This document shows positions 5,398 through 20,271 of a stretch of DNA of 64,000 nt, piece by piece. The stretch is from a virus: positions 1 through 64,000 of the IMG/VR virus record IMGVR_UViG_3300025530_000001; one strand, 5' to 3'. Position 1 is the first letter of the stretch. Each line of letters begins with the position of its first letter. Made by a program: the position numbers and the translations under genes. The notes below the pieces were generated by a model that worked only from the letters and a program-made list of their open reading frames with translations, did no database searches and was not told the DNA's origin.

Positions 5398-5586
5398 TCA
5401 CTCAATTACCTCCATTACAATTCCGGATGTCGTTGTGCTCATCTTTATGTGTTCCTTGTAATACTTTCCACAACGAATACATCGATACACATCAACGTAG
5501 CGATTGTCACTGGTGAAGCAAGACCTTATATGCTCCCAATCATGACAACATTGGTTGTTATTGAGGTAGTTGGACACTAACTCCAT
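5398..5586 (-). CDS. small Cys-rich (zinc-ribbon-like) protein
   Basis: 62 aa with CC-H...C...CIRCG pattern. AAGGTGG RBS. Confidence 0.55.
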   Translation of the reverse strand: MELVSNYLNNNQCCHDWEHIRSCFTSDNRYVDVYRCIRCGKYYKEHIKMSTTTSGIVMEVIE

Positions 5587-6753: not shown

Positions 6754-7082
6754 GAGCCCTGATCAACATGAATGAGCATGTCATGAAGATAAGCATGATA
6801 TACATCGAGCTGATCATCCGACATCTGCACATCATTTCTGACGAGCGCCATCCATGGATGAGTGATAAGCACATCCGTCAAATTGCTCTGCACAATCAGT
6901 CTGGCAATATGATCATCCTTCAGGATGATGTCGATGTAATCATCGCCGATATCCAGCTGATAGTTGCCGAGGATCTGGAACAATGCATGGGTGACTTCGC
7001 CGATATGAGATGTTGGCAAGCGAAATACCAGATACTGCGCTTCGTCATCAATGCGGAGCTCCATCACTTCGTGTTTGGCCAT
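6750..7082 (-). CDS. hypothetical acidic protein
   Basis: AAAGGAG RBS 10 nt upstream of ATG 7080-7082 (MAKHEVMELRIDDE...). The upstream part of the 218-aa track ORF looks non-coding. Confidence 0.6.
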   Translation of the reverse strand: MAKHEVMELRIDDEAQYLVFRLPTSHIGEVTHALFQILGNYQLDIGDDYIDIILKDDHIARLIVQSNLTDVLITHPWMALVRNDVQMSDDQLDVYHAYLHDMLIHVDQGS

Positions 7083-7229
7083 AGTTAAACGTCTCCTTTC
7101 ATTACAGGGAAAATGTTTGACTGAAGAAATCATCAAGGAAGGAATGAAGAGAGGATGAAATGAAGTGTTTTCAATCTGGTCGTGAAGCTTGCTTCGCAGC
7201 GACCTGGGGATGGAGAGGATCAGAAAAAA

Positions 7230-7483
7230 CATGCGGCCGGAAGAGTAAATGAACAGCCCCTGTCGCATGGTAGGTTTTTTGCATGTGTGCTCGCCTGACG
7301 CAAGCATCATCCGAATGGAATGTGGCGATAGCCACAAGACGGAGTGGTGCAAACCCCGCAGGGTGGTGGAGATAGCTGCATGATGCAGACCCGAAGGGTG
7401 CGCCACGCCGGATGATGGGAGAGGCGAAGATATGCAAACCCGAAGGGTTCCTGCCTTCTATTGAGCAGACCATGCATGTTGTG
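7230..7483 (-). ncRNA. candidate structured RNA / structured 3' UTR with three tandem hairpin repeats
   Basis: GC-rich and lacks any RBS-supported ORF. Three direct repeats, TGCA(A/G)ACCC-[GAAG/CGCA]-GGGT, at about 7347-7365, 7383-7400 and 7432-7449. Further hairpins GTGGC/GCCAC and GCTTGC/GCGAGC. Ends at CATGCG...CGCATG flanked by A6/T6 (7224-7280). Confidence 0.35.
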
Positions 7484-7909
7484 TTAATCTATGGTCTTGA
7501 GAGCTGCTTTATACATGTCCAAGCATTCATCGATCGTGGGGCGATCTACAAATTGGGCAATGTAATGAGCGGCTCTTTTTGCGTTCATGCCAATGAGATT
7601 AAAGCAAAGAACGCACACAGGCTGCTTGAACAACCCATGTGCGTTCCCATAGCGGATGCCGACTGTGATCTTGAATACTCCCCAGCAATCGACATTGCCG
7701 ATTACCTGAGTCAGATCCTTTCGATCCAGTGATAACGTGAGATCCACTGGAACATCGTCGATGAAGCAATCCGTGCCTTTAAATCTATCCTCGTCGTGAG
7801 TGGCATATCGGATCTTGACTATCTCTTCAAGACGATAGATCATCTCGTCTTCAAAGACAAAGCCAGATCTGCGATCCTTGTTGATGTTGTTGTATACAGC
7901 ATTAAACAT
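7484..7909 (-). CDS. hypothetical protein
   Basis: 141 aa with AAAGGAGGTG RBS 7 nt upstream. Confidence 0.7.
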   Translation of the reverse strand: MFNAVYNNINKDRRSGFVFEDEMIYRLEEIVKIRYATHDEDRFKGTDCFIDDVPVDLTLSLDRKDLTQVIGNVDCWGVFKITVGIRYGNAHGLFKQPVCVLCFNLIGMNAKRAAHYIAQFVDRPTIDECLDMYKAALKTID

Positions 7910-8513
7910 GCTGCACCACCTCCTTTAGATATCCATGTTTCTTTGCATCCTTGATGAACATCTCCCAGCCCTTATCGGTCAGGCCTACCCAGAAGCCATA
8001 ATCAACTCCTGATACACGTCTGCCTTTATAGGTCCGGCTGCCACGAGATGTGTATCCACGGAGAACTCCAAGTTCAATCAGCTGATCAATATCGCTATGC
8101 CAGGCTGCATGCAACTTGAAGCTGTTGAAGAAGATCAGGTTCTTGCGATTGATCATCTTTTTGGAGTTCAAACCATACTTCTTGGCGATCTCCATGCCAA
8201 TCTCACGGAAGATGTAGCGGGTTCCGTTGTTCTCTTGCATGTACAAGAGGAACAATGGGTCGCCATCTTCTTCGAGCTTTTTGGCACGTGCCACACGTTC
8301 GCCGAACTCGTCATGAACAGAAACAAGCACGTACTCTGGATTGACCTTGAGTATATGGTCCATCCATTCCCGTGCTTGCCCGTATGACAGATCCCGATTT
8401 GTCGTGAGAACATGGTATGGCGGCCCCTTCTCCTGGAAGGTAACCGTAAATGTCCCGTGATCATCAGGCTTAATGATGACATGAACATGTATTACAGGGT
8501 ATTGGTAGTCCAT
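7902..8513 (-). CDS. hypothetical protein with C-terminal winged-helix-like region
   Basis: 203 aa with GAGGTG RBS. C-terminal LIELGVLRGYTS...YGFWVGLTDKGWEM resembles a MarR-type wHTH (weak). Confidence 0.6.
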   Translation of the reverse strand: MDYQYPVIHVHVIIKPDDHGTFTVTFQEKGPPYHVLTTNRDLSYGQAREWMDHILKVNPEYVLVSVHDEFGERVARAKKLEEDGDPLFLLYMQENNGTRYIFREIGMEIAKKYGLNSKKMINRKNLIFFNSFKLHAAWHSDIDQLIELGVLRGYTSRGSRTYKGRRVSGVDYGFWVGLTDKGWEMFIKDAKKHGYLKEVVQHV

Positions 8514-8587
8514 ACAATCACCTCATATCGATAGTGGTTTTGCATGGTCTGCCCAATACAAAGCAGGAACACCTTGGTGAATCACAA

Positions 8588-8623
8588 CCGTTGAATGATG
8601 AACTCTAATGAGGGGGCGAATGC
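8588..8623. repeat. left arm of long-range inverted repeat bracketing the RNAP gene
   Basis: CCGTTGAATGATGAACTCTAATGAGGGGGCGAATGC. 32 of 37 positions are complementary to 12476-12512. Confidence 0.8.
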
Positions 8624-8645
8624 CGCTCCCCGATTAGATGGCTAT

Positions 8646-11600
8646 TTAGATAGCCTGAACATCCGTGACTTTAACAGTCACAGTGTGCTTTCCGTTAAAG
8701 CTGCAGGAGTCAACAATTGCACGCAACTGCTTATGACCCGCTACGAACGGAAGAGCAGTATACAGAGCCCAGCCAGTCAACACCTCACGGCCGTTTACAG
8801 GAACGTAAACGTTGTAAAGGGTGTTGCGAGTACGTGGCGAAATCTCGGCCTTCACAATGATCTCCTTGTGCTCATTGATATAAGCAGCAAGCTTCTCGCC
8901 GTTGCGGCCGTTCTCCAGGGCAAATGCCATGGTGAATGCGCCACGCTCGAACTGATACGGATTCACAGTAGACTCCGCATTGCCCGATGCCAACGCAACA
9001 GCTTCAAGCAATTGACGCTTGAATACTGTCCAAGGAAGGCTCAGGCCACGAAGACGAGTCACTTCACCGTCTTCGTTCAGTTCTGGCTTGCGGTTCTGTG
9101 TATACGTCACGTAATATGCAACGTATCCGATGTGCTCTGGACGGTAGGCTGCTTCCAACGCTGTTGCTTGTCCTTGGAAATACTCAAGGATGTCTGACCA
9201 CTCAGCTCTGCGCAGCTCCTCGATTTCTTCAAACTTCTCAGCGTGCATATGTTCAGGCAAGTTTTGCATCACCCACTTCTTGCGCTCATTCTCAAGATCC
9301 GAGATTTCGGTGACAGCATCAATGTATTCGCCACGGATGGCTTTAACACGTTGCTCGATCAGCTCGAATGTTGCCGGATCAATCGAAATGGCGGCAGTCA
9401 GCTCGCCGAGAATGTTTGCTTGCTCATAGAAGCTGTGCTTCATCTTGCCGTCTTCAATCGAAAGACCATTTGCTTTCGCTTGGAGATCGGCAATGCGAGG
9501 ATCCAGATTCTCTTTCACCCAATCCTTGATGAAGTTATGCAACTTATCAAGTGTCGAGTGAGTCGAGACTCCATGTTTACCCTTGCGGGATGCCAGGAAT
9601 TGAGGAGTTCTCCATTTCCGCTTACCCGATTTTTCATCAAAGTACGATGCGAAATAAGGAGGGTTGGAGATAAACTCCAATTTAGCCGCCAGCTGTTCCT
9701 CATAGGCTCCACCGTGTTTTGCACGGTCGATCTCCCAGCCTTGCACCAGGCGGAGAAGGTCAATATATTCTTGATACTTGACCATCTCATGCTTCAGCAT
9801 GGCCAGTTGATTAGGAGTCCACTTGCACGGCTTGCCATGCTCATCGATCGATTCATCAATCATCTGACGAATCTTTCTGATGGCATTAGCGAGCTGAGTA
9901 GCCTTATTAGTCATGAAACCAATCTTGTTTGGATTCATAGTGAGAATCACATACTCGATTGAATATTCATGAATGGCTTGTACCAGCTCTTCAGTGTATT
10001 GATCATCACGGAAAACCACGGTATAATCAGAAGCCGAGACACAATCTGCACCGAACTCGAACTTGTCTGCTTCACCAGACTTGTTCATTGGGTAAGGGCA
10101 GCCGGTCTCAAAGCTTCTGATGGAGCCGTCGTCTTTGCGCTCAAAGTAGAGATCCAACACGGGAATGTAAGATTTGCTTTGAGCGGCCGTGACGATGGCT
10201 TCTTCCGTAATGGTCAAGCACGTATCGCCGTCGTTGTCAGCTCCACCCATAGCATACGTATTGTAATCATGCACGCTCATCACGCACAGATTACGGAACG
10301 CATGCATACGAGTTGCTGCGACATAATTGCTCGGCGCCACGCAATCAACCAGTCTTGCTTCACCATTGGTGATCGCAGGGTTGCGTGCCAAGACGACCTT
10401 ACGATCTACCATTGGTTTCAGAGAACGATCAAGCAAGAATACCTCATTCGCTCTCATGCCAATGTTTGCAGGCACGATGAGTTCCCCATCCTCGTTGCGC
10501 ATCCCGATTCTATGAGCTTCAAGAATCGCATATGGATCTTGCACCATAAAGCGATAATGCCCATCCACCGGGATCGTCGAGTTCACCCATTTGTTTACCT
10601 CTTGACGCAGCAATTCGATTGCCCATTGCTGCATCATTGCGTCTTTATGGACGAATGCATTCTCTCCACGACCAGCGTAAAGGAACGCACCAAAGGTAGT
10701 CACAATGGACTTCTTGAGGAGGTATTCTTTCTCGTCTTCATCGAGTCCGCTCATGTCGTTCAGAGCTGCGACACCTGCACGCTTCGCCAATGCTACAGGA
10801 TCATCCAGGTCCGCCAGCAAGGAGTTGAGATTCTTCTCAACAATTCCCTTCAGCACATCATAGCTCAATGGCAAGATATGCGAGAATTGATAAGGCAGAA
10901 TCGTCTTCTCCTTTGTTTGCGCCATGCTCTTATTGAACAAGGCAATGCGGAGTTGAGTGTCGAACTTATGGCAGATCGTGCGAAGATCGCCTTTCATCGC
11001 CGATTTCGTCACTACGATGTTTGCATCATAGTATTTGCGCAGGCCAGGTACGAATACCATAAGACCTTTAGCAAACGGCGTCAGGCGAATCTGCCATGCA
11101 TCAGAATCTTCACCGAATTCTGCAAGCAATGCTTGATAGATTTCCTCATCGCAGAAGATGAGTCCATCACCAGCCGGCAGTTTCAGCGGTACTTCCGATG
11201 CATCGAACGTGTGGAACGAGCCGGTATCCTTATCAAAGGCTTTGTACTTGCCACTGTTGACCATTGCGAATGCATCTTCAATGACTTCAATGGTGTACAA
11301 GCCGCCTTCGATGCGGTAGCCATGTGCTGTATTGCGATACTCTTTCCCGAAAGAAATCGTTTCGCTAGGCACTGTGCTCGTGCCGGCCAGACCAATACGC
11401 TTGAGGTACTTTGTAATATCGAGTACCCAAACAGATTGACCATGGACCACTTTCCGCTTAGCAAATGCCAGGAGATCCATGCCCAAAGCAGCAAATGCTT
11501 CTGGAACCGACATGAATTCCTCATCCAGAAATACTGCTTGCAGCAAACGAGACTGACTTGCAGTTTGCAGGAAGAAGACCGCATGTCTGAGCTCTCCTGT

Positions 11601-12419
11601 TTCCCGGTTCACATACCAGAAGCCTTCACGAAGAATTCGATTACGTGCTTCGATCTGTGCCAGAATTGCAGGATCATTCTCCTTGCCTTCCGGGATCTCA
11701 ATGTTCAGATCCACATAATGGACATGATCCATGATATCCACGACCCGCTCCACAATGATGTCTTTGCCCTTCGACTTGCGACGGAATGCGACAGTGACAT
11801 CACGTTGCGCTGCGAGTGTGTCGGAAAGCGCAGATTGAGATTGCGTGCGGTACGCTGTGTTCTTACCGGTATAGCCATAGTCTCCATAAATCAGAGACGA
11901 CTCAAACCGATCAGCTGCCTCGTTGAACTTGATGTTCTTCAAGGAGCCTGCAGCGACCAGCACCATGTTGCGCTTTGGACGCTGAAGCTTACGAGCAACC
12001 TTGTTGGTCAAGAGGAATTCCTCGAACCAATGAGCTTGCGCCGGATGAATGCCTGCATATTCCACAGGATTATGCAAGATATCCGAGATCGAGATACCTT
12101 CAGCGCATGCAGCCACTACCTTCTTGAAGTTGGTAGTGTTCTCATGGATACCTGGTGCTTTGCGGAGTTCTCGGATGATCGCCTGGTAAGTACGCAGCTC
12201 CTCGCCAGTCATGCGATCCAAACGCTTGGCTTCTTCGTAACGAGCAATTGCTGCACGAGTTGCCTTCTTCAGACCACGTTGGATTTCACGACGACGACGT
12301 GCTTCCTCACGAGCGATAGCGTATTTGATGAACGCTTCCTCGTTCTCCATGCAGAAGACTGGTACTTCATGACGTTGAGACTTGGACTCCAGAGTTTTAG
12401 CAAGTGTCTTATTATTCAT
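8646..12419 (-). CDS. single-chain two-barrel RNA polymerase candidate (YonO / eukaryotic-type RdRP-like)
   Basis: 1,257 aa with GGGAGG RBS 10 nt upstream of ATG 12417-12419. Motifs: FFLQTASQSR (11547-11576), AGDGLIF, WQIRLTPFAKGLMVFVP (11064-11096 core), VLARNPAITNGEARLV (about 10347-10394), GGADNDGD (DNDGD at 10224-10238). Confidence 0.7.
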   Translation of the reverse strand: MNNKTLAKTLESKSQRHEVPVFCMENEEAFIKYAIAREEARRRREIQRGLKKATRAAIARYEEAKRLDRMTGEELRTYQAIIRELRKAPGIHENTTNFKKVVAACAEGISISDILHNPVEYAGIHPAQAHWFEEFLLTNKVARKLQRPKRNMVLVAAGSLKNIKFNEAADRFESSLIYGDYGYTGKNTAYRTQSQSALSDTLAAQRDVTVAFRRKSKGKDIIVERVVDIMDHVHYVDLNIEIPEGKENDPAILAQIEARNRILREGFWYVNRETGELRHAVFFLQTASQSRLLQAVFLDEEFMSVPEAFAALGMDLLAFAKRKVVHGQSVWVLDITKYLKRIGLAGTSTVPSETISFGKEYRNTAHGYRIEGGLYTIEVIEDAFAMVNSGKYKAFDKDTGSFHTFDASEVPLKLPAGDGLIFCDEEIYQALLAEFGEDSDAWQIRLTPFAKGLMVFVPGLRKYYDANIVVTKSAMKGDLRTICHKFDTQLRIALFNKSMAQTKEKTILPYQFSHILPLSYDVLKGIVEKNLNSLLADLDDPVALAKRAGVAALNDMSGLDEDEKEYLLKKSIVTTFGAFLYAGRGENAFVHKDAMMQQWAIELLRQEVNKWVNSTIPVDGHYRFMVQDPYAILEAHRIGMRNEDGELIVPANIGMRANEVFLLDRSLKPMVDRKVVLARNPAITNGEARLVDCVAPSNYVAATRMHAFRNLCVMSVHDYNTYAMGGADNDGDTCLTITEEAIVTAAQSKSYIPVLDLYFERKDDGSIRSFETGCPYPMNKSGEADKFEFGADCVSASDYTVVFRDDQYTEELVQAIHEYSIEYVILTMNPNKIGFMTNKATQLANAIRKIRQMIDESIDEHGKPCKWTPNQLAMLKHEMVKYQEYIDLLRLVQGWEIDRAKHGGAYEEQLAAKLEFISNPPYFASYFDEKSGKRKWRTPQFLASRKGKHGVSTHSTLDKLHNFIKDWVKENLDPRIADLQAKANGLSIEDGKMKHSFYEQANILGELTAAISIDPATFELIEQRVKAIRGEYIDAVTEISDLENERKKWVMQNLPEHMHAEKFEEIEELRRAEWSDILEYFQGQATALEAAYRPEHIGYVAYYVTYTQNRKPELNEDGEVTRLRGLSLPWTVFKRQLLEAVALASGNAESTVNPYQFERGAFTMAFALENGRNGEKLAAYINEHKEIIVKAEISPRTRNTLYNVYVPVNGREVLTGWALYTALPFVAGHKQLRAIVDSCSFNGKHTVTVKVTDVQAI

Positions 12420-12475
12420 AGTGAATATTCCTCCCTGATTATTGTTTGGTGTGTGATGAATAGTCAGGGAAGCAA

Positions 12476-12512
12476 GCACTCGCCCGCCTCATTAGAGCTC
12501 GCCATTCAACGG
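12476..12512. repeat. right arm of long-range inverted repeat bracketing the RNAP gene
   Basis: GCACTCGCCCGCCTCATTAGAGCTCGCCATTCAACGG. Lies 57 nt upstream of the RNAP start codon. Confidence 0.8.
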
Positions 12513-12838
12513 ATACAACCCCTGGGAGTTTCCGACCTACAGGGGAGGTTCCACAATCCTTGGGTGTTCCCTATACCGGGGGAATGTGGACACTTACTAC
12601 CCGGTACAGGTGCCATGGATTGTTACGTAGACATTGAGCCCATAGCCCACCCAATGCATACGGCAAGTCTTCCGTGATTCACTGGCCATGTGAAGACTTG
12701 GCTTAAGCCATAGCCAGATAAGGTGACACTACTCACCCCCACATACGTCACCTAAATAGGTGGGGGAGGGGAAAGCCAGTAGTAGGGGTCTATCATTTCA
12801 CCCTATAACCAGCAATCCCATTGGATGCACCATAGCTG
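12513..12838 (-). ncRNA. candidate structured leader / ncRNA with three tandem H-type pseudoknot arrangements
   Basis: No ORF. Interleaved perfect stems: 12550-55/12585-90 with 12574-80/12600-06; 12664-72/12692-700 with 12682-86/12713-17; 12721-27/12747-53 with 12736-42/12760-66. Also hairpin 12519-24/12540-45. Confidence 0.35.
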
Positions 12839-13390
12839 TTAGGCTACAATGCATGCTGCGACCGCACCCCATGCAAAGGTTGCGATCTTAAACACCAGCC
12901 CTGCAAGCATCAAAGCAAGCATGCCAATGTAAACAAAGGCTGCTGGTGCAACTGCGCCAACAATGCCGGCCATAAGGGCTTTCTTGATAGCGCCGTTCTT
13001 CTTGCGATTCCGGATGTACTCCAGGATCGCTGCACTGACACCGCCAACGATGACTGATCCCACAAGAGAGCTAGTCATCATGGCAGCAGCTAATGCAGAA
13101 ACAGTTCCTACAGCAATTGATGCCTTGTCAGAATCTGCTTCTACTTTCGATTGCATCGCCTTGACAGGGTTGCTGCCGAGCTTCTCGTTGAAGAACCTTT
13201 GGAAGCGTCCAGTTGCAGCTGCTACTCCTTCCTTGGCAGTCTGTACAGACTCCTTGAAGGTTGCTCCTGCCATCGTTGCAGATCCAGCTTTGGTGGCCTG
13301 TGCAGTGCTGATACGGTACACAAGGCGACCAATGTTGCCGAGCACAAACACCTTCATGGTTTCTGCTGTGGATGCGAATTGGTTTTTCAT
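12839..13390 (-). CDS. membrane protein (Ala/Gly-rich, C-terminal TM helices)
   Basis: 183 aa with AAAGGAGAG RBS. TM-like stretches LVGSVIVGGVSAAIL, GIVGAVAPAAFVYIGMLALMLAGLVF and WGAVAACIVA. Confidence 0.7.
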   Translation of the reverse strand: MKNQFASTAETMKVFVLGNIGRLVYRISTAQATKAGSATMAGATFKESVQTAKEGVAAATGRFQRFFNEKLGSNPVKAMQSKVEADSDKASIAVGTVSALAAAMMTSSLVGSVIVGGVSAAILEYIRNRKKNGAIKKALMAGIVGAVAPAAFVYIGMLALMLAGLVFKIATFAWGAVAACIVA

Positions 13391-20118: not shown

Positions 20119-20271
20119 GTTGATGGGGATCAAGTTTAAGTTAATCTAAGCTGTCATTGTAAAATTAAGATGTAGGGGTCTATGCACCGCCCTAACCAAC
20201 ACCAATGGGGATTTATGAGGGTAAGAGTGCGGACCTCTTATTCTTTAATTGCAGGAAGGGATGGAAGTCAA

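What the first reader, a model, noticed from the sequence alone, without database searches (positions are those of the whole stretch)
8588..12512. ~37-bp long-range inverted repeat brackets the RNAP ORF, with differences that are G-U compatible only in the sense transcript
Segment 8588-8623 begins 22 nt after the RNAP stop codon. Segment 12476-12512 lies 57 nt before the start codon. They are complementary at 32 of 37 positions. Of the four substitutions, three become G-U wobbles in the minus-strand (mRNA-sense) RNA but C-A mismatches in the antisense RNA. The remaining difference is a single bulged C. This pattern argues for selection on an RNA duplex that closes a 3.9-kb loop around the polymerase ORF. 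That resembles rRNA or phage RNase III processing stalks, and differs from transposon-type terminal inverted repeats.
Basis: seen in the sequence. Interest (0 to 1): 0.6.

Follow-up and report, generated by a model that had tools for sequence, protein, structure and literature searches.

The report
RNA stalk enclosing phage polymerase gene
Two complementary stretches just outside a giant phage's RNA polymerase gene can pair in the mRNA into a ~50-bp helix that loops out the whole 3.8-kb gene; distant relatives keep the pairing through matched changes and a second such helix sits next door, so this looks like rRNA-style transcript processing applied to protein-coding genes.

Summary
The inverted repeat is real and far beyond chance. 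In mRNA sense it reads 32 Watson-Crick pairs, 3 G-U, 1 C-A and 1 bulged C. With G-U pairs allowed it extends to about 50 bp (12464-12519 with 8581-8633).

Four distant relatives (33-40% protein identity) bracket the homologous polymerase gene in the same way. One is a 229-kb Paenibacillus rhizovicinus 'plasmid'. Their arm sequences have diverged, but 10 arm positions changed on both sides while keeping the pair.

A second, previously unnoted 37-nt bracket (8541-8577 / 7440-7476) starts 10 nt after the first and encloses the next two genes. These two brackets are the strongest long-range complementarities in the 197-kb genome. Both are about 12 kcal/mol more stable in mRNA sense than in antisense.

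The genome shows no extra arm copies, target duplication, serine/tyrosine recombinase or RNase III gene.

Best reading: tandem 5'-flank/3'-flank RNA stalks in a leftward polycistronic transcript, probably cut by host RNase III to release mRNAs with paired ends. Cleavage is inferred only.

Caveats:
- About ten relatives lack the bracket.
- The sense-strand bias is absent in two of the relatives that have it.

The scan has noted similar gene-bracketing stalks on other DNA.

The parts
12464..12519 (-). It lies in the 5' untranslated region, 44-56 nt upstream of the polymerase start codon.
   Evidence: homologous arm in L003 and L010
8581..8633 (-). It begins 12-22 nt after the polymerase stop codon.
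8646..12419 (-). 1257-aa polymerase ORF enclosed by stalk 1. It is a Pfam PF05183 'RdRP' family member with a GGADNDGD metal-binding motif, of the YonO-like two-barrel single-chain class.
8604..8638 (-). Local hairpin in the 3' untranslated region. It uses part of the 3' arm, so it competes with the long-range pairing. No U-run follows it.
12513..12838 (-). ORF-free structured leader upstream of the 5' arm. Its hairpins are conserved in L003 and L010 with compensatory changes (15 of 58 predicted pairs).
8541..8577 (-). 5' arm of stalk 2. It starts 10 nt after the core 3' arm of stalk 1 and ends 27 nt before the start codon at 8513.
7440..7476 (-). 3' arm of stalk 2. It begins 7 nt after the stop codon at 7484-7486, and its end overlaps an ACCCUUCGGGU hairpin.
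7484..8513 (-). Two ORFs enclosed by stalk 2: 203 aa (7902-8513) and 141 aa (7484-7909). Homologues of the 141-aa protein sit directly upstream of the polymerase gene in L005, L006 and L008.

Best explanation
The two arms are the DNA footprint of a long-range RNA helix (about 50 bp with a few wobbles, one mismatch and small bulges). The helix forms in the leftward, mRNA-sense transcript between the 5' untranslated region and the 3' untranslated region of the polymerase cistron, and loops out the entire 3.8-kb ORF.

Immediately downstream, a second helix of the same design loops out the next two genes. The transcript therefore carries tandem stalks, like the 16S and 23S stalks of an rRNA operon.

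The most likely function is that the host's double-strand-specific RNase III cuts each stalk. This would free the polymerase message from its 326-nt leader and from the neighbouring cistrons. The remaining half-stems would keep its 5' and 3' ends base-paired and shield them from exonucleases.

Shown here: the complementarity, its uniqueness, its placement just outside the ORFs, its conservation by compensatory change, and its sense-strand bias in this lineage.

Inferred: that one transcript carries both arms, that the helix forms in vivo across 3.9 kb, that RNase III cuts it, and that the result is stabilisation rather than decay.
For: - Uniqueness and strength: scores are 65 and 69 against shuffle maxima of 44-52. 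The duplex is -79.3 kcal/mol and the net gain over local folds is -32 kcal/mol.
- Conservation in relatives: the same bracket is the top long-range complementarity in L003, L010, L009 and L011. These are 33-40% identical in protein and form three separate lineages on the polymerase tree.
- Compensatory change: group A has 23 invariant pairs and 8 pairs changed on both sides; group B has 25 and 2. Between L003 and L010 no core substitution breaks a pair.
- RNA sense: the sense duplex is more stable by about 12 kcal/mol in WIN, L003, L010 and stalk 2. Two G-U pairs are retained in all three group-A members.
- Position: the arms always lie outside the translated region, 41-110 nt before the start and 7-80 nt after the stop. 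The exception is L009, where a further small ORF is also enclosed.
- Second stalk: it is adjacent to the first and has the same geometry.
- Leader: it is a conserved structured RNA.
- Transcription context: no significant promoter or terminator was predicted between the arms, and all neighbouring genes are on the same strand.
- Enzyme source: the phage has no RNase III gene, so a host enzyme would act.
- Precedent (PMC11780869): B. subtilis RNase III cuts long-range intramolecular mRNA duplexes of 10-36 bp.
Against: - No RNA data exist for this phage, so the transcript, the helix and the cleavage are all untested.
- About ten other relatives of the polymerase gene show no bracket. The feature is therefore dispensable or repeatedly lost.
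- In L009 and L011 the antisense duplex is as stable as the sense one or slightly more so. The strand argument therefore rests on one lineage plus stalk 2. The independent tally of wobble types (about 8 sense against 3 antisense) is not significant on its own.
- Concerted evolution of DNA repeats by gene conversion could also make both arms change together.
- In L009 and L011 a stable CCCUUCGGG hairpin lies between the stop codon and the 3' arm. If it terminates transcription, the 3' arm would be missing from most transcripts there.
- Forming a helix across 3.9 kb of translated RNA is kinetically demanding, and local hairpins compete with it.
Confidence: 0.55

Rival explanations
1. The same long-range RNA helix forms but acts without cleavage. 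It would hold the two ends of the polymerase mRNA together, to protect them or to tune translation, as described for icaR in Staphylococcus aureus and hbs in B. subtilis.
For: All the structural and covariation evidence applies equally. In WIN, L003 and L010 the inner end of the 5' arm is pyrimidine-rich (CCUCUCC / CUUCCC) and complementary both to the gene's ribosome-binding site and to a purine-rich stretch just after the stop codon.
Against: The ribosome-binding site itself lies outside the helix. Its predicted accessibility changes little with or without the 3' flank: 0.18 to 0.33 in WIN and no change in the other four. A near-perfect duplex of about 50 bp is unlikely to escape RNase III in a Bacillota host (PMC11780869). 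The tandem arrangement fits cistron excision better.
Confidence: 0.2
2. The arms act in DNA. They could be two inverted binding or recombination sites, either an invertible polymerase-gene switch or protein-mediated looping. Alternatively they are repeats kept alike by gene conversion.
For: Inverted repeats flanking a whole gene, with a possible promoter outside, is the layout of an invertible-gene switch. Both arms changing together is also what conversion, or co-evolution with one binding protein, would give. L009 and L011 show no RNA-strand bias.
Against: - No serine or tyrosine recombinase was detected in the whole 197-kb genome.
- A second adjacent bracket with an unrelated sequence would need a second specificity.
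- The gene has the same orientation as its neighbours in the loci checked (WIN, L010/L021 and the ORF after the gene in L009).
- Arm differences are mostly transitions that give G-U in mRNA sense. Two of them persist across WIN, L003 and L010 between co-varying positions, and conversion tracts should have erased them.
- The complementarity continues through bulges and G-U-only stretches, which DNA repeats do not need.
Confidence: 0.12
3. The arms are terminal inverted repeats of a mobile cassette that delivered the polymerase gene.
For: A 37-nt imperfect inverted repeat tightly flanks a single large gene.
Against: - There is only one pair in the genome.
- There is no direct repeat at the outer edges (AATCACAA against ATACAACC).
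- The interval between the arms holds nothing but the polymerase ORF.
- The arms have co-diverged with the gene in relatives at 33-40% protein identity, and the neighbouring leader is homologous too.
- DNA-motif scans of IMG/VR with either arm found only the known relatives plus unrelated gene starts.
Confidence: 0.03

Closest known systems
rRNA operon processing stalks (flanks of 16S and 23S rRNA pair and are cut by RNase III); established knowledge
   Same: Complementary sequences kilobases apart enclose a whole functional unit. Several stalks stand in tandem on one transcript. The helices are tens of base pairs long and imperfect.
   Different: Here the enclosed units are translated protein-coding cistrons (3.8 kb and 1.0 kb) of a phage. 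No cleavage has been shown, and no boxA-like element was looked for.
RNase III sites of the phage T7/T3 early transcript, which cut it into monocistronic mRNAs including the gene 1 RNA polymerase message; established knowledge
   Same: A phage polycistronic transcript is cut into segments around its own RNA polymerase gene by the host RNase III, and the remaining stems stabilise the products.
   Different: T7 sites are local hairpins between cistrons. Here each cistron block is closed by pairing of its two distant flanks.
Long-range intramolecular RNase III targets in Bacillus subtilis mRNAs (Taggart et al. 2025, PMC11780869)
   Same: The host group is Bacillota. The targets are mRNA duplexes formed by distant segments, and duplex lengths overlap (10-36 bp there, 37-51 bp here).
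   Different: This one spans 3.9 kb and encloses the complete ORF from outside.
5'-UTR/3'-UTR pairing of icaR mRNA in Staphylococcus aureus (PMC3868564)
   Same: The two untranslated regions of one mRNA pair in a Bacillota organism, with RNase III involved.
   Different: The icaR 3' UTR pairs with the ribosome-binding site to block translation. Here that site lies 25-90 nt outside the helix and its predicted accessibility is not consistently changed.
Invertible DNA segments (invertons) and transposon terminal inverted repeats
   Same: Imperfect inverted repeats flank a gene-sized segment.
   Different: No recombinase, extra copies or target duplication were found. The arm differences are biased towards G-U in the mRNA sense, and the arms co-diverge with the enclosed gene.

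Membership tests
RNase III processing stalk (long-range dsRNA substrate) | Two RNA segments able to form at least about two helical turns (20 bp or more) of mostly uninterrupted duplex | tested here: met
   About 51 bp at -79.3 kcal/mol for stalk 1 and about 40 bp at -62.5 kcal/mol for stalk 2; 38-49 bp in relatives
RNase III processing stalk (long-range dsRNA substrate) | Both arms present on one transcript | tested here: inconclusive
   The arms share a strand with all neighbouring genes, and no above-chance terminator or promoter was predicted between them. The leader shows RNA-type covariation. No RNA data are available.
RNase III processing stalk (long-range dsRNA substrate) | Pairing maintained by compensatory change in relatives | tested here: met
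   10 positions changed on both sides with the pair kept, across 5 loci. Absent in about ten other relatives.
RNase III processing stalk (long-range dsRNA substrate) | RNase III-dependent paired cuts leaving 2-nt 3' overhangs | not testable with these tools
   Needs end-mapping in wild-type and rnc-deficient hosts
RNase III processing stalk (long-range dsRNA substrate) | An RNase III available in the infected cell | tested here: inconclusive
   The phage genome has no PF00636 or PF14622 match. The host is not identified. Relatives reside in Paenibacillus, Bacillus, Alicyclobacillus and Oceanobacillus, and the B. subtilis control genome carries the enzyme.
Transposon or MITE terminal inverted repeats | Multiple copies or other cargo, target-site duplication, transposase | tested here: not met
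   One pair in the genome, no flanking direct repeat, and only the polymerase ORF inside. Arm motifs elsewhere in IMG/VR are unrelated gene starts. DDE transposase families were not searched genome-wide.
Invertible DNA segment (inverton) | A site-specific recombinase that acts on the repeats | tested here: not met
   No PF00239 or PF00589 match in the 197-kb genome
Invertible DNA segment (inverton) | Both orientations present in a population | not testable with these tools
   Needs raw reads. The loci checked show one orientation relative to their neighbours.
icaR-type translational control by 3'-UTR pairing | The 3' UTR pairs with, or controls access to, the ribosome-binding site | tested here: not met
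   The ribosome-binding site is outside the helix. Unpaired probability goes from 0.18 to 0.33 in WIN and is unchanged in L003, L010, L009 and L011.

The most novel reading that the evidence does not exclude
The paired 5' and 3' flanks may be more than a processing site. They could form a panhandle-like platform on the polymerase's own message that the encoded RdRP-family (PF05183) enzyme recognises, either to copy the message or to prime from it. That would make the stalk part of an RNA-templated step inside a DNA phage. Nothing here excludes this. Against it: the second stalk encloses non-polymerase genes, a 326-nt leader lies outside the helix, and the only characterised relative (YonO) is DNA-dependent.
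Probability: 0.03. Interest if true: 0.9.

Novelty: new variant of a known kind. Interest (0 to 1): 0.55.

Why it matters
If the helix forms and is cut, it would be one of the longest-range functional mRNA base-pairings described for bacteria or phages: 3.9 kb, against about 0.5 kb mapped so far in B. subtilis. It would also show that the rRNA-operon design, with tandem stalks that excise units from a long transcript, is used for protein-coding cistrons. Here the excised unit would be the transcription enzyme of a little-studied group of ~200-kb phage-plasmids of Bacillota. The case is directly testable, because one carrier (Paenibacillus rhizovicinus 14171R-81, record NZ_CP048288) is a cultured strain. 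For annotation, such gene-bracketing inverted repeats should not be called transposon ends or invertible switches by default.

Tried and rejected
- RNAduplex on 450 x 1000-nt flanks gave whole-length pseudo-duplexes and timed out. I replaced it with G-U-aware local alignment and a diagonal scan.
- Translational switch. The pyrimidine-rich inner end of the 5' arm could alternate between the ribosome-binding site and a mimic after the stop codon. Predicted accessibility did not change consistently, so I dropped this as the main mechanism.
- Upstream ORF. The 5' arm holds ATG GCG AGC.. in WIN, L003 and L010. The frame ends after 13 codons in WIN, runs into the main ORF in L003 and lasts 37 codons in L010. 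No ribosome-binding site sits at a usable distance, and group B has no equivalent. Rejected.
- The + strand ORF 8595-9197, which starts in the 3' arm, is antisense to the polymerase ORF and I treated it as spurious.
- The local 3' hairpin as an intrinsic terminator: no U-run follows it.
- More relatives were sought without gain:
  - single-protein scans;
  - GenBank phages by DNA and by protein (none);
  - 401 Bacilli genomes (only the two already known);
  - arm-motif scans of IMG/VR (only known loci plus chance hits);
  - metagenome and genome scans (no new bracket-bearing locus).
The contigs of the closest proteins (P0002, P0003, P0006) therefore could not be examined.
- Rfam found nothing in 7000-13000, even at E up to 1, so there is no known intron or riboswitch class around the gene.
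- A PDB profile search with the polymerase family found nothing.
- The careful tree did not finish, so the tree I cite is the quick IQ-TREE one.
Full report
**Setting.** The window is the first 64 kb of a 197.4-kb IMG/VR virus record with direct terminal repeats. Genes from about 14.9 kb down to position 1 run leftward on the minus strand, and the rest run rightward. The ORF in question is 8646-12419(-). It has its ATG at 12419 behind a GGAGG and encodes 1257 aa. It matches Pfam PF05183, the 'RdRP' family (E 4e-13). It and its 13 homologues share an invariant GGADNDGD motif. That makes it a two-barrel single-chain polymerase of the YonO kind (PMC5467207), not a T7-type enzyme.

**The observation.** The arms are as described.
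- In mRNA sense, the 37-nt arm at 12512-12476 pairs with the 36-nt arm at 8623-8588 through 32 Watson-Crick pairs, 3 G-U, 1 C-A and one bulged C.
- The antisense RNA would have 1 G-U and 3 A-C at the four substituted positions.
- The 3' arm starts 22 nt after the stop codon and the 5' arm ends 56 nt before the start. The ORF fills 3774 of the 3852 nt between them.
- The repeat occurs only as this one pair in the whole genome.
- With G-U pairs and small bulges allowed, the helix grows to about 51 bp (12464-12519 with 8581-8633). It is -79.3 kcal/mol in sense and -67.4 in antisense, while shuffled arms average -28.5 with a best of -44.5.
- After paying for the local folds it replaces, the helix still gains about -32 kcal/mol.
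- In a G-U-aware diagonal scan of all pairs up to 10 kb apart it scores 65 in mRNA sense and 52 in the other sense. Eight block shuffles of the window peaked at 44-52.

**A second stalk.** A 37-nt, 84% complementary pair lies at 8541-8577 and 7440-7476.
- Its 5' arm begins 10 nt after the core 3' arm of the first pair and ends 27 nt before the start codon at 8513.
- Its 3' arm begins 7 nt after the stop codon at 7484-7486. It therefore encloses exactly the next two ORFs (203 and 141 aa).
- It scores 69 in mRNA sense against 59, with -62.5 against -50.4 kcal/mol.
- These two brackets are the two strongest long-range complementarities in the whole genome. The remaining 137 kb gives nothing above 60.

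**Relatives.** No close relative exists in IMG/VR or GenBank phages. A protein search found 13 homologues at 33-43% identity, and profile-based scans fetched their loci. The same family occurs on 200-260-kb records filed as plasmids of Paenibacillus and Bacillus (loci), and on ~195-kb contigs of Alicyclobacillus and Oceanobacillus. These elements look like phage-plasmids of Bacillota.

The single outstanding long-range complementarity brackets the polymerase gene in four of these loci: L003, L010 (which is Paenibacillus rhizovicinus NZ_CP048288), L009 and L011.
- The 5' arm lies 41-110 nt before the start.
- The 3' arm lies 7-80 nt after the stop, except in L009, where one further small ORF is also enclosed.
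- Duplexes are 38-49 bp at -60 to -78 kcal/mol, with net gains of -40 to -43 kcal/mol.
- L004-L008, L012 and L022-L026 show nothing above background, even with 1-kb flanks.
- On a quick maximum-likelihood tree, the bracket-bearing loci form three lineages interleaved with bracket-less ones.
- The WIN, L003 and L010 arms are clearly homologous and their leaders align. An old feature with several losses is therefore the simplest history.

**Covariation.** I aligned each 5' arm with the reverse complement of its 3' arm and tabulated the columns.
- WIN/L003/L010 have 23 invariant pairs, 8 pairs changed on both sides and still paired, and 1 changed on one side.
- L009/L011 have 25, 2 and 1.
- Examples: GAGGCGG in both arms of L003 becomes GAGACAG in both arms of L010; TTCATG becomes TGCATG; GGGACTC/GAGTCCC in L009 becomes GGGGCTC/GAGCCTC in L011.
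- Between L003 and L010, no substitution in the core breaks a pair.
- The inner extension of the helix has entirely different sequences in WIN, L003 and L010, yet it remains complementary.

**RNA or DNA?** Several points favour an RNA helix in mRNA sense.
- The arms always sit just outside the translated region, where ribosomes would not unwind them.
- In WIN, L003, L010 and stalk 2, the sense duplex is 10-13 kcal/mol more stable than the antisense one.
- The 5' GGCGAG / 3' UUCGUC segment keeps its two G-U pairs in all three group-A members, although positions on both sides of it co-vary. Gene-conversion tracts between DNA repeats should have erased those differences.
- The 326-nt ORF-free leader just upstream has hairpins conserved in L003 and L010, with compensatory changes in 15 of 58 predicted pairs. 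This stretch therefore behaves as structured RNA.

Against the RNA-sense argument:
- L009 and L011 show no sense bias.
- My count of lineage-independent wobbles, about 8 of the sense type against 3 of the antisense type, is only suggestive.

**DNA-level rivals.**
- The genome has no serine or tyrosine recombinase.
- There are no further copies of the arms and no flanking direct repeat.
- Nothing lies between the arms except the polymerase ORF.
- Scanning IMG/VR with either arm motif returned only the known relatives and unrelated gene starts.
- Two adjacent brackets with unrelated sequences would require two recombination or binding specificities.

**Mechanism.** I propose that the leftward transcript carries tandem stalks that a host RNase III cuts. 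The phage has no RNase III of its own. Cutting would release the polymerase cistron, and separately the two-gene block, each with paired ends.

The basis is analogy plus one directly relevant data set. In B. subtilis, mapped RNase III sites lie in long-range intramolecular mRNA duplexes of 10-36 bp whose cut positions are up to 505 nt apart (PMC11780869). rRNA operon stalks and the T7 early-transcript sites are the classical parallels (established knowledge). Whether cleavage stabilises the message or starts its decay cannot be told from sequence.

A non-cleaving version (end-to-end pairing, as in icaR, PMC3868564) is the main rival. A simple ribosome-binding-site switch is not supported. No above-chance promoter or terminator is predicted between the arms, but no transcript data exist.

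**Limits.**
- The comparative set is five bracket-bearing loci.
- The tree is the quick version.
- Nothing here measures RNA.

**Earlier notes of the scan.** The scan's notes describe similar gene-bracketing helices on unrelated DNA. I did not test those.

Noticed in passing
window 7385-7450 (-); L003 6792, L010 6707, L011 6415, L009 7105, L007 6613, L012 6518, L022 6017, L006 6480, L004 6973: A CCCUUCGGG (UUCG-loop) hairpin lies downstream of the polymerase gene in ten relatives checked, and at the 3' arm of stalk 2 in the window, where it is repeated. It has no clear U-run. It could be a 3'-end or termination signal of these elements.
   Followed up: partly
window 7487-7909 (-); L005 2351-2698, L006 2554-2850, L008 2577-2870: Homologues of the 141-aa protein enclosed by stalk 2 (33-40% identity) lie directly upstream of, and abutting, the polymerase gene in three bracket-less relatives. 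It is a conserved neighbour and may be a polymerase partner. No Pfam family matched.
   Followed up: partly
window 12775-12812 (-); L003 about 2557-2595; L010 about 2565-2603: The leader begins with a nearly invariant hairpin element (GCTGGTTATAGGGTGAAATGATA.ACCCCTACTAC) that shows two compensatory pairs. A related element was noted earlier at 20172-20205. It could be a promoter, operator or RNA signal.
   Followed up: partly
L007 6605-6641 / 6903-6939: A 37-nt, 92% complementary inverted repeat encloses 261 nt just downstream of the polymerase gene in a relative that lacks the gene bracket. Both arms contain the CCCTTCGGG motif. L012 and L022 have only the first arm.
   Followed up: partly
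L007 about 2680-2700; L008 1064-1090 and 7369-7395; L012 and L022 upstream regions: A recurring CCCTATATAGGGAG-type motif lies upstream of the polymerase region in several relatives and resembles the TATAGGGAGA core of T7-type promoters. TATAGGG occurs 9 times in the window against about 3 expected.
   Followed up: no
own genome 153500-153529 / 153899-153928 (outside the window): A 30-nt complementarity 369 nt apart scores 60 in minus-strand sense. It is the third strongest in the genome. I did not examine it.
   Followed up: no
window 5493-5524 / 10352-10383: A 32-nt, 78% inverted repeat has one arm inside the polymerase ORF. It scores 55 only in plus-strand sense, just above the shuffle maxima (44-52), so it is probably chance.
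   Followed up: partly
plasmid records NZ_CP048288, NZ_CP118109, NZ_CP097261, NZ_CP114067, NZ_AP025341, NZ_CP035189 and others: Homologues of this polymerase sit on 200-260-kb records filed as plasmids of Paenibacillus and Bacillus, all annotated 'hypothetical protein'. No GenBank phage in the collection has one. This points to an unrecognised group of jumbo phage-plasmids.
   Followed up: partly
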